A DNA stretch of 64,000 nucleotides from IMG/VR virus record IMGVR_UViG_3300037422_000298; one strand, given 5' to 3'. This DNA comes from a virus (Duplodnaviria; Caudoviricetes). The notes beneath the pieces were generated by a model. The model worked only from the letters and a program-made list of their open reading frames with translations. It had not been told where the DNA came from and did not search any database. A program made the position numbers and the translations under genes. How positions within the stretch are numbered: position 1 is the first letter of the stretch; each line of letters opens with the position of its first letter. Shown piece by piece: positions 52,821-53,117 of this stretch.

Positions 52821-52949
52821 CGCGGGTAAGCGCACTGGGTGCGCGCTCCTCTCATAAGGGAAAAACCTCACAGTCACATCTCGCCGTGCACGCGCGGCAT
52901 CCGCAACTGTGTACAAGCCAGCTAGGTTCGATTCCTAGACCCGCGACCA
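52821..52949 (+). tRNA. tRNA(CAT) (Met or Ile2) with ~55-60 nt structured variable-arm insert
   Basis: Acceptor CGCGGGT/ACCCGCG + A + CCA; D arm GCGC/GCGC; loop CTCATAA; T arm CTAGG-TTCGATT-CCTAG. Confidence 0.7.
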
Positions 52950-52979
52950 CCTGACAACTGAAGAGCGCGCCAAATTTTC

Positions 52980-53117
52980 CGGGGGTCACGCCGGTCGGTC
53001 CGGCACTTGAATACGGATCAAGCAAACACTCAACAGCGGCACTCGGCGTCGACGTTCACGCGAAGACGCCACTCGTCGAATGTTTACAAGCTAGTGGTTC
53101 GACTCCACAACCCCCGA
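52980..53117 (+). tRNA. tRNA-Arg(ACG) with ~65-70 nt structured variable-arm insert
   Basis: Acceptor CGGGGGT/ACCCCCG; AC arm CTTGA-ATACGGA-TCAAG; T arm GTGG-TTCGACT-CCAC. Confidence 0.7.

What the first reader, a model, noticed from the sequence alone, without database searches (positions are those of the whole stretch)
52821..53117. tRNA(CAT) and tRNA-Arg(ACG) with giant structured variable-arm inserts sharing a motif
Both have perfect 7-bp acceptors and normal T loops, but 55-70 nt inserts where 4-5 nt are expected. Each insert is stem, C-rich internal loop (ATCTC/ATCC; ACTC/ACTC), hairpin, and both end in TACAAGC just before the T arm. The position and size do not fit group I introns. They may be a novel small intron or an appended protein-binding module.
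Basis: seen in the sequence. Interest (0 to 1): 0.78.

Follow-up and report, generated by a model that had tools for sequence, protein, structure and literature searches.

The report
tRNA-shaped Y-like RNAs in phage
Two small RNA genes of an uncultured giant phage fold as complete tRNAs but carry a conserved 58- or 70-base extra arm, and they belong to a widespread RNA family that travels with a hidden relative of the Ro60 RNA-binding protein, so they are most likely protein-bound tRNA look-alikes rather than intron-containing tRNAs.

Summary
Window 52821-52946 and 52980-53117 are full cloverleaves (CAU and ACG loops) with 58- and 70-nt structured inserts in the variable region.

Twelve relatives of each RNA keep every arm and the insert through compensatory changes. 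The insert is built like the terminal "handle" of the three neighbouring non-tRNA RNAs in the same operon: a G-C helix entered through ..CUC|G and left through A(C/U)(C/U).., here closed by a loop.

A covariance model of the ACG RNA finds full-length relatives in 16 of 25 Myxococcota-type loci fetched through the window's 648-aa vWA protein. All lie on the gene's strand, and nine loci have them just upstream of the gene, often in tandem. That protein escapes the TROVE HMM. Its non-vWA part, folded alone, ranks the three Ro60 representatives first among 48,161 PDB chains.

Anticodon loops vary freely across the family. The complete relative phage has ordinary tRNA-Arg(ACG) and tRNA-Val(UAC), and no HMM-detectable RtcB, splicing endonuclease or RNA ligase.

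Verdict: these are Y-RNA-like tRNA mimics with the protein-binding module in the variable arm. This is a new variant of a known kind. The intron reading is not supported.

The scan also noted this stretch in an overlapping window, and a similar RNA family in another phage (e1-5831896).

The parts
52685..52713 (+). Promoter of the RNA operon: TTGACA, 17 nt, TAGGGT
   Evidence: Read directly. TTGACA..GCTAGGGTGCT is conserved in front of the array in the relatives whose upstream sequence was shown. The simple sigma-70 scan does not list it because the -10 hexamer is TAGGGT.
52721..52819 (+). R0, the leader Y-like RNA. It starts GGCUGGU. It has a 9-bp terminal stem, an ACCA/ACUC internal loop, a 10-bp stem, and UACAAGC before a GCAA hairpin.
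   Evidence: Fold z -6.1. The handle is conserved in 12 of 13 arrays.
52821..52949 (+). RNA 1: a tRNA-shaped RNA with a CAU loop and encoded ACCA at the 3' end. The body is 52821-52946.
   Evidence: The 7-bp acceptor stem is kept in 12 of 12 relatives with 5 different sequences.
52864..52921 (+). 58-nt variable-arm insert of RNA 1. Base stem CACAG/CUGUG, internal loop ..CAUCUC / AUCCGCA, hairpin GCCGUG-CACG-CGCGGC, linker UACAAGC.
   Evidence: The base stem pairs in 98% of cells. The hairpin takes about 9 different complementary sequences.
52951..52962 (+). Conserved spacer CTGACAACTGAA between RNA 1 and RNA 2. It may be a processing signal.
   Evidence: The motif CTGA(C/A)AACTGAA is found in all 13 arrays.
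52980..53117 (+). RNA 2: a tRNA-shaped RNA with an ACG loop. Its 3' end abuts the next RNA.
   Evidence: The covariance model scores 115-150 bits on the 13 phage copies.
53023..53092 (+). 70-nt variable-arm insert of RNA 2. Stem AACA/UGUU, stem CGGC/GUCG, internal loop ACUC/ACUC, hairpin GGCGUC..GACGCC, then GUCGAAUG and UACAAGC.
   Evidence: 98.8% of cells pair, against 28-48% when the partners are slid.
53120..53242 (+). R3: a handle-closed tRNA-like RNA (GAU loop) with the same CUC|G..C|AUCC module at its termini.
   Evidence: Fold z -3.9. Handle table.
53310..53384 (+). Ordinary initiator-type tRNA-Met inside the array.
   Evidence: ARAGORN and Rfam, 59.8 bits.
53387..53517 (+). R5: a second handle-closed tRNA-like RNA (CGU loop).
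   Evidence: Fold z -4.5.
41291..43237 (+). Candidate protein partner: a 648-aa Ro60-like protein with a beta domain, a TROVE-like helical repeat region and a vWA domain.
   Evidence: Pfam finds only vWA. Foldseek on the whole model ranks Ro60 entries first. The N-terminal part alone ranks 2nvo, 9l5y and 1yvp first to third of 48,161 chains.
43395..43470 (+). Small RNA-like element just after the Ro60-like gene, with GGACCGAAG and a T arm (GCGGG-UUCGAUU-CCCGU).
   Evidence: Read directly. Its fold is not better than shuffles, so it is tentative.

Best explanation
RNA 1 and RNA 2 are non-decoding tRNA mimics of the Y-RNA kind.

Proposed mechanism:
1. They are transcribed from one promoter together with three other Y-like RNAs and an initiator tRNA.
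2. They are cut out by the host's tRNA-processing enzymes, because they keep a true acceptor stem, elbow and T arm.
3. The extra arm in the variable region is a docking module: a G-C helix flanked by the conserved strands ..CUC|G and C|A(C/U)(C/U).., followed by the linker YACAMGC. It binds the phage's Ro60-like protein (window 41291-43237). The same module, in open form, does this at the termini of the neighbouring RNAs.
4. The tRNA-shaped body with its exposed anticodon-like loop is the effector end. It presents a tRNA look-alike to tRNA-binding proteins of the host. These could be nucleases, modification enzymes or exonucleases such as PNPase, which the RNP would either tether or decoy.

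What is shown: the RNA structure, its conservation, the shared module, the linkage to the gene, and the Ro60-like fold.

What is inferred: binding to the protein, lack of decoding, and the tether or decoy role.
For: 1. Structure under selection.
- The cloverleaf arms and insert stems covary in 12 relatives of each RNA.
- In a 46-member family alignment, 94.7% of cells pair against 34-51% in slid controls, and 29 of 32 pairs show double changes.

2. The insert has the same design as the terminal handles of R0, R3 and R5 in the same operon.

3. Linkage to the Ro60-like gene.
- Full-length model hits occur in 16 of 25 loci fetched only through the Ro60-like protein.
- 72 of 73 hits are on the gene's strand.
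- Nine loci have hits within about 1.2 kb upstream of the gene, with up to three tandem copies.
- In the window and in the 221-kb relative, the array lies 9.5-12 kb downstream on the same strand.

4. The protein has Ro60 architecture.

5. Ro60 with tRNA-like Y RNAs is established in bacteria and phages (PMC4201824, PMC12135203, PMC7824862).

6. The anticodon loop is not constrained as in decoders.
- RNA 1 has CAU in 4 copies, UAC in 7 and UCC in 1. Four of these copies have C37.
- Family-wide, U33 occurs in 30 of 40 seven-nt loops and a purine at 37 in 30 of 40, and 5 loops have 6 or 8 nt.

7. The window copies lack U8 and A14 and have 5-6-bp D stems with 3-5-nt loops.

8. The complete relative has ordinary tRNA-Arg(ACG) and tRNA-Val(UAC) elsewhere.
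Against: - No binding or expression data exist.
- The TROVE HMM does not detect the protein. The fold matches have modest Z scores (9.3, 8.6, 6.7) with rmsd 13-14 A, and Foldseek on the N-terminal part alone is not significant.
- The published Ro60 motif GNCGAAN0-1G is present only in some RNA 2 copies (GUCGAAUG) and not in RNA 1.
- One bacterial copy has no Ro60-like gene within 10 kb. The isolate Paraliomyxa has the gene but no model hit.
- The ACG loop AUACGGA is invariant in 10 of 13 phage copies while the stems vary. The acceptor end is open with A73 and sometimes an encoded CCA. Both points would also fit a working tRNA.
- The relative that has an ordinary tRNA-Arg(ACG) is also the one whose RNA 2 is degenerate.
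Confidence: 0.6

Rival explanations
1. They are working tRNAs (Met or Ile2, and Arg) that are charged and used in translation. The giant variable arm is an extra feature, for example a tag bound by a phage protein or a shield against host tRNA nucleases.
For: - Perfect 7-bp acceptor stems, A73, and an encoded CCA in some copies.
- Normal T loops and D-loop GG.
- The window copies have U33 and a purine at 37.
- The ACG loop is invariant in 10 of 13 phage arrays.
- ARAGORN accepts them once the insert is removed.
- The Rfam tRNA model scores bacterial members at 47-60 bits.
- CAU to UAC is a classical identity switch between Met and Val (own knowledge, Schulman and Pelka 1988).
- G001 has an ordinary tRNA-Arg(ACG) and at the same time a degenerate RNA 2.
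Against: - No natural tRNA has a 58-70-nt variable arm (own knowledge).
- U8 and A14 are absent and the D arms are atypical in the window copies.
- C37, non-U33, and loops of 6 or 8 nt occur in relatives.
- Tandem copies with different loops sit beside a Ro60-like gene in bacteria that have full tRNA sets.
- Three neighbours with the same module have no free acceptor end.
Confidence: 0.2
2. The inserts are small introns that are cut out and the halves ligated, giving ordinary 76-nt tRNAs.
For: The insert sits at a single site, and its removal leaves a recognisable tRNA. Archaea have introns at non-canonical positions (PMC4090602).
Against: - The folds show no bulge-helix-bulge, and Rfam gives no group I or other intron hit at E up to 10.
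- The complete relative has no hit to the RtcB, tRNA_int_endo or RNA_ligase models.
- The same module forms the termini of R0, R3 and R5.
- The insert sequence is more conserved than the tRNA stems.
- The linker YACAMGC would remain as an oversized variable loop.
Confidence: 0.04
3. They are stand-alone decoys for host anticodon nucleases or tRNA-modifying enzymes and work without the Ro60-like protein. The insert only stabilises the RNA or blocks its entry into translation.
For: - Loops copy real anticodon loops: CUCAUAA, CUUACAC, and AUACGGA, which closely resembles a tRNA-Arg(ACG) loop. They differ between phages and between tandem copies.
- Phage tRNA arrays are discussed as anti-defence devices (PMC12803027).
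- An orphan copy exists without a nearby Ro60-like gene.
Against: This does not explain why the insert shares its loop sequences with the handles of the neighbouring RNAs, or why the family sits next to the Ro60-like gene.
Confidence: 0.12
4. They are decaying tRNA pseudogenes that picked up junk insertions.
For: tRNA finders do not call them.
Against: There are compensatory changes in every helix, conserved insert loops, and conservation from phages to Myxococcota.
Confidence: 0.01

Closest known systems
YrlA-type bacterial and phage Y RNAs bound by Ro60/Rsr (Chen et al. 2014, PMC4201824; structure preprint 10.1101/312249)
   Same: A small RNA that combines a tRNA-like domain (T arm, D arm, elbow) with a separate stem thought to bind Ro60. 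It is encoded near the Ro60 gene on the same strand, often in several copies, and is also found in phages.
   Different: - In YrlA the 5' and 3' ends form the Ro60-binding stem at the position of the anticodon stem, and the acceptor stem is closed by a loop.
- Here the ends form a true open acceptor stem with a discriminator, a full anticodon arm is present, and the candidate binding module sits in the variable arm.
- Rfam finds no match other than tRNA.
- The partner protein is not detected by the TROVE HMM.
Thermus phage phiLo Ro60 with Yrl1 and Yrl2 (PMC12135203; PDB 9KOP, 9L5Y)
   Same: A phage-encoded Ro60 with phage-encoded Y-like RNAs of stem, internal loop, stem design. 9l5y and 9kop are among the best structural matches of the window protein.
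   Different: The phiLo RNAs are simple Y-like stems with a CGAA bulge and are not full cloverleaves. The phiLo protein is called a Trove-domain protein in its PDB title.
Deinococcus radiodurans Yrn1 with Rsr and PNPase (RYPER)
   Same: It gives a working model in which one RNA module binds Ro60 and the other tethers an effector. Yrn1 also has T-arm and anticodon-arm-like features (PMC4201824).
   Different: Yrn1 has no acceptor end and no variable-arm insert. The effector for the present RNAs is unknown.
Class II tRNAs (Leu, Ser, Tyr, Sec) with long variable arms
   Same: An extra stem-loop emerges between the anticodon and T arms.
   Different: Natural variable arms reach about 20 nt (own knowledge). 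These are 58-70 nt, have an internal loop and conserved sequence, and occur on Met-, Val- and Arg-type bodies.
Archaeal tRNA introns at non-canonical positions (PMC4090602)
   Same: An insertion in a tRNA gene outside the anticodon loop.
   Different: There is no bulge-helix-bulge and no splicing enzymes were detected. The insert is shared with non-tRNA RNAs, and the context is bacterial and phage.

Membership tests
Canonical decoding tRNA | 7-bp acceptor stem with discriminator, and a T arm with GUUCRANYC | tested here: met
   (7 of 7 pairs in all RNA 1 copies and all but one RNA 2 copy).
Canonical decoding tRNA | Core nucleotides U8, A14 and A21, with a 3-4-bp D stem and a 7-11-nt D loop | tested here: not met
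   The window copies have A8 or C8, 5-6-bp D stems and 3-5-nt loops that keep only GG. Several bacterial members do have the canonical D arm.
Canonical decoding tRNA | 7-nt anticodon loop with U33 and a purine at 37, and an anticodon conserved among orthologues | tested here: inconclusive
   Met in the two window copies. Among relatives RNA 1 switches between CAU, UAC and UCC, with C37 in 4 copies. Family-wide, U33 occurs in 30 of 40 loops and R37 in 30 of 40. The ACG loop is invariant in 10 of 13 phage copies.
Canonical decoding tRNA | Variable region of 4-5 nt, or up to about 20 nt in class II | tested here: not met
   58 and 70 nt in the window; 57-70 nt in relatives.
Canonical decoding tRNA | Recognised by tRNA gene models | tested here: not met
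   ARAGORN and Rfam RF00005 do not report the window copies even at E up to 10. They are called only after the insert is deleted.
Canonical decoding tRNA | Aminoacylation and use on the ribosome | not testable with these tools
   This needs acid-gel northern blots or tRNA-seq.
Y RNA / YrlA (Ro60-associated tRNA-like ncRNA) | Encoded close to a Ro60 gene on the same strand | tested here: met
   16 of 25 loci fetched through the protein have full-length hits on the gene's strand, and nine of them have hits within about 1.2 kb upstream. In the phages the array lies 9.5-12 kb downstream on the same strand.
Y RNA / YrlA (Ro60-associated tRNA-like ncRNA) | Partner protein is Ro60 (TROVE ring plus vWA) | tested here: inconclusive
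   At the fold level the three Ro60 representatives rank first to third of 48,161 chains for the non-vWA part (Z 9.3, 8.6, 6.7), and Ro60 entries lead the full-length Foldseek list. The TROVE HMM gives no hit in 32 members or in G001, and Foldseek on the N-terminal part alone is not significant.
Y RNA / YrlA (Ro60-associated tRNA-like ncRNA) | tRNA-like T and D arms forming an elbow | tested here: met
   GGUUCGAnUCC and the D-loop GG are at least 90% conserved in 44 members.
Y RNA / YrlA (Ro60-associated tRNA-like ncRNA) | Ro60 site in a long stem formed by the 5' and 3' ends | tested here: not met
   The ends form a 7-bp acceptor stem, and the candidate site is a hairpin in the variable region. 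The neighbours R0, R3 and R5 do have it at their termini.
Y RNA / YrlA (Ro60-associated tRNA-like ncRNA) | Motif GNCGAAN0-1G (CGAA) in the binding strand | tested here: inconclusive
   GUCGAAUG or GCCGAAUG occurs in 5 of 12 RNA 2 inserts, and GUCGAUUG or other variants in the rest. It is absent from RNA 1 and is not in the family consensus.
Y RNA / YrlA (Ro60-associated tRNA-like ncRNA) | Physical binding to Ro60 | not testable with these tools
   This needs EMSA or co-immunoprecipitation.
tRNA intron (protein-spliced or group I) | Bulge-helix-bulge at the exon-intron junctions, or a group I core | tested here: not met
   The folds show a plain stem at the insert base with single-stranded linkers. 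Rfam finds no intron family at E up to 10.
tRNA intron (protein-spliced or group I) | Splicing endonuclease and ligase available in the element | tested here: not met
   No PF01974, PF01139 or PF09414 hit in the 221-kb complete relative. Host enzymes were not examined.

The most novel reading that the evidence does not exclude
These are aminoacylatable Y RNAs: complete tRNAs that are charged and can engage synthetases, EF-Tu or the ribosome while carrying a Ro60-like protein on their variable arm. This would let a giant phage, and Myxococcota, couple an RNA-surveillance ring directly to specific tRNA identities or to translation.
Probability: 0.12. Interest if true: 0.92.

Novelty: new variant of a known kind. 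Interest (0 to 1): 0.7.

Why it matters
Ro60 and Y RNAs are conserved from bacteria to humans, and why bacterial Y RNAs imitate tRNA is still unsettled.

This family shows a third way of joining a tRNA shape to a Ro60-type docking stem. Here it is on a full, open-ended cloverleaf with an exposed anticodon-like loop that varies from copy to copy.

It also points to a large Ro60-like protein family, with more than 1,700 homologues in giant phages and Myxococcota, that standard domain models miss.

If the RNAs bind this protein, they provide a natural set of tRNA-specific adaptors. That would make testable the idea that Ro60 particles are aimed at tRNA-binding enzymes or at tRNA damage during phage infection.

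In practical terms, such genes are missed or mislabelled by tRNA finders.

Tried and rejected
- Direct relatives by DNA pattern in IMG/VR gave only one true relative plus chance hits in coding sequence. The metagenome scan added one more (L016).
- The ORF at 51700-52335 found no relatives.
- dCTP-deaminase neighbours beyond the closest relative lacked the array.
- Pfam and PDB sequence searches of the two vWA proteins found nothing beyond vWA.
- The second look with VIA-align on the whole model tested only the vWA domain.
- Foldseek on the N-terminal part alone gave only generic helical repeats, with 9kop at rank 47.
- Alignment A4 contained a placeholder row and was discarded.
- The column-wise count of the RNA 1 hairpin is blurred by 5-bp versus 6-bp hairpins (66.7% paired). 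The per-sequence table is the better evidence.
- The deposited virus Rctr197k carries the protein next to a large tRNA array, but it has only a truncated relative of the RNA.
- The whole-genome RNA search scored only 150 of about 7,000 candidates per genome and missed known copies, so no genome-wide exclusivity can be claimed.
- The preprint on three families of tRNA mimics concerns other RNAs.
- The pseudogene and group I intron readings were rejected, as set out under the rival explanations.

Full report
**Observation**

The stretch lies in an RNA operon of an uncultured giant phage. No whole genome is held for the window. The window has phage-type genes and many tRNA genes.

After a TTGACA-17-TAGGGT promoter (52685-52713) come six RNAs:
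- R0, a leader RNA (52721-52819)
- RNA 1 (52821-52946, followed by CCA)
- RNA 2 (52980-53117)
- R3, a handle-closed tRNA-like RNA (53120-53242)
- an ordinary initiator-type tRNA-Met (53310-53384)
- R5, a second handle-closed RNA (53387-53517)

They have 7-bp acceptor stems and normal T loops, with CUCAUAA and AUACGGA anticodon loops. Inserts of 58 and 70 nt sit between the anticodon and T arms, and both inserts end in UACAAGC.

MFE folds give a cloverleaf plus a long arm. ARAGORN and the Rfam tRNA model miss both RNAs, even at E up to 10. With the insert removed in silico, ARAGORN calls them Met(CAU) and Arg(ACG).

**Relatives and covariation**

I reached thirteen related arrays through three routes:
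- one IMG/VR contig of 221 kb
- one metagenome contig
- contigs encoding homologues of the ORF just upstream of the array

All of these arrays keep the order promoter, R0, RNA 1, RNA 2, R3. One array (L040) lacks RNA 1.

RNA 1:
- The acceptor stem takes five different complementary sequences.
- 15 of 27 consensus pairs show double changes.
- The distal hairpin of the insert takes about nine different complementary sequences. Its flanks..CA(A/U)CUC and A(U/C)CCGCG, stay fixed.

RNA 2:
- 98.8% of cells in the insert helices pair, against 28-48% when the partners are slid.

The inserts are therefore selected structures.

**A module shared with the neighbouring RNAs**

In R0, R3 and R5 the 5' and 3' ends pair into a 9-bp terminal stem. 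An internal loop follows. Its 3' strand ends in CUC directly before the G that starts the stem. Its 5' strand begins A(C/U)(C/U) directly after the stem. A second, covarying helix comes next.

The inserts of RNA 1 and RNA 2 have the same arrangement, with the end helix closed by a loop instead of by the termini:
- RNA 1: CAUCUC-[GCCGUG..CGCGGC]-AUCC
- RNA 2: GCACUC-[GGCGUC..GACGCC]-ACUC

Five adjacent RNAs thus display one helix-plus-loop module on different scaffolds. This is what one would expect of a common ligand.

**The candidate ligand**

Sequence searches:
- The 648-aa protein at 41291-43237 shows only a vWA domain.
- The TROVE HMM finds nothing in the complete 221-kb relative.

Whole-protein model (pLDDT 77):
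- It has an N-terminal beta domain, a helical repeat region and a vWA domain.
- Its best full-length Foldseek matches are all Ro60 structures: phage phiLo, human, Xenopus and Deinococcus. They align over about 500-570 columns at E 1e-7 to 1e-5, with low TM-scores.

Non-vWA part folded alone (pLDDT 74):
- Foldseek gives nothing significant.
- An exhaustive comparison with 48,161 PDB representatives ranks the three Ro60 representatives first to third: 2nvo at Z 9.3, 9l5y at Z 8.6 and 1yvp at Z 6.7. Generic HEAT proteins follow at Z 6.4 or lower.

I read this as a divergent Ro60-type architecture, supported at the fold level only. The family has more than 1,700 homologues on giant-phage contigs and in Myxococcota.

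**Linkage of RNA and protein**

A covariance model built from the twelve RNA 2 copies scores them as follows:
- the phage RNA 2 copies, 115-150 bits
- the RNA 1 copies, 30-54 bits

It also finds full-length matches of 119-179 nt in 16 of 25 loci that were fetched only because they encode the protein. Most of these loci come from Myxococcota genome bins. Of the 73 hits, 72 lie on the gene's strand. Nine loci have hits within about 1.2 kb upstream of the gene, and three loci have three tandem copies.

These RNAs share the whole architecture, including CUCG and YACAMGC. Family-wide, 94.7% of cells pair against 34-51% in slid controls, although this alignment was fitted to the model. Rfam's own tRNA model scores several bacterial members at 47-60 bits across about 136 nt.

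In the window and in the 221-kb relative, the array lies 9.5-12 kb downstream of the gene on the same strand.

There are exceptions:
- One strong copy in a 9.9-Mb bin has no such gene within 10 kb.
- The isolate Paraliomyxa has the gene but no hit.

**Decoder or mimic?**

Evidence against decoding:
- RNA 1's loop is CAU in four arrays, UAC in seven and UCC in one. Four of these copies have C37.
- Across the family, the loops differ freely between tandem copies. U33 is present in 30 of 40 seven-nt loops, and five loops have 6 or 8 nt.
- The window copies lack U8 and A14 and have compact D arms.
- The complete relative has ordinary tRNA-Arg(ACG) and tRNA-Val(UAC) elsewhere.
- Three operon neighbours with the same module have no free acceptor end.

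Evidence for decoding:
- The acceptor end is open, with A73.
- The ACG loop is invariant in 10 of 13 phage arrays.
- The relative that has an ordinary tRNA-Arg(ACG) is also the one in which RNA 2 is degenerate.

I therefore keep the reading 'working tRNA with an extra arm' at 0.2.

**Intron reading**

I reject this reading for four reasons:
- The folds show no bulge-helix-bulge.
- Rfam finds no intron family.
- The complete relative has no HMM hit for RtcB, a splicing endonuclease or an RNA ligase.
- The module also forms the termini of other RNAs.

**Comparison with what is known**

Bacterial and phage Ro60 proteins with tRNA-like Y RNAs are established (PMC4201824, PMC12135203, PMC7824862).

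In YrlA, the Ro60-binding stem is formed by the RNA ends at the anticodon-stem position, and the acceptor stem is closed by a loop (PMC4201824). Here the cloverleaf is complete and open-ended, and the module sits in the variable arm.

The published motif GNCGAAN0-1G appears only in some RNA 2 copies (GUCGAAUG). Neither Rfam nor the papers I could search describe this architecture.

I file it as a new variant of the Y-RNA / tRNA-mimic kind, not as a YrlA member.

**Mechanism proposed (inferred)**

1. Host tRNA-processing enzymes release the RNAs.
2. The variable-arm module docks on the Ro60-like protein.
3. The tRNA body, with its variable anticodon-like loop, engages tRNA-binding host factors as a tether or a decoy.

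Binding, expression and charging remain untested.

Noticed in passing
L001:8590-8793: In the 221-kb relative the second RNA is replaced by a roughly 190-nt variant. It keeps the ACG hairpin (AAUACGGAUCAAGCAA) and the start of the insert, but it has a different 5' half and ends in an anticodon-less mini-tRNA (GUGGAUC..UCGG-UUCGAAU-CCGA-GAUCCAC). The same phage has an ordinary tRNA-Arg(ACG).
   Followed up: partly
window 52951-52962: The spacer CTGA(C/A)AACTGAA between RNA 1 and RNA 2 is conserved in all 13 arrays. It may be a processing signal.
   Followed up: no
window 43395-43470: Directly after the Ro60-like gene lies a short element with GGACCGAAG (a CGAA-type motif) and a canonical T arm but no anticodon arm. 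Its fold energy is not better than shuffles.
   Followed up: partly
window 41291-43237: The Ro60-like protein has an extra N-terminal beta domain (about residues 34-112) that Ro60 structures lack. The family has more than 1,700 homologues, none annotated as TROVE.
   Followed up: partly
window 43670-48954 and loci L027-L035: A conserved gene neighbourhood lies between the Ro60-like gene and the RNA array. It includes a ThiF/E1-like gene in all relatives, and earlier notes list E2-like, JAB and Ubl genes there as well. A link to tRNA thiolation or Ubl conjugation was not examined.
   Followed up: no
L085:9811-9942 (G002 contig C20, minus strand): An orphan family member in a 9.9-Mb bacterial bin has no Ro60-like gene within 10 kb. 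Its loop CUUACCC (UAC with C37) is identical to that of four phage RNA 1 copies.
   Followed up: partly
L084 (KX853510.1, Virus Rctr197k) 7216-11045, 11129-13078 and 21746-21807: In this deposited uncultured virus the Ro60-like gene follows directly on an array of about 37 ordinary tRNA genes. A truncated relative of RNA 2 lies after the ThiF-like gene. It has the 5' half with CACUUGAAAAUGGCUCAAGCAA but no insert and no T arm.
   Followed up: partly
L040:809-849: One related array lacks RNA 1 altogether (a short hairpin stands in its place). Its RNA 2 has the loop AAUUGGC instead of AUACGGA.
   Followed up: no
window 6892-9237 (minus strand): A second large protein (781 aa, phrog_2426, E 1e-175) has 34% identical homologues in about 500 phages of enterobacteria, some annotated as vWA-domain proteins. 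Its function is unknown and no link to the RNAs was found.
   Followed up: partly
window 53185-53210: In R3 the arm at the T position carries the loop CUCAUAA, identical to the anticodon loop of RNA 1 and of tRNA-Met. R3 therefore displays two anticodon-like loops.
   Followed up: no
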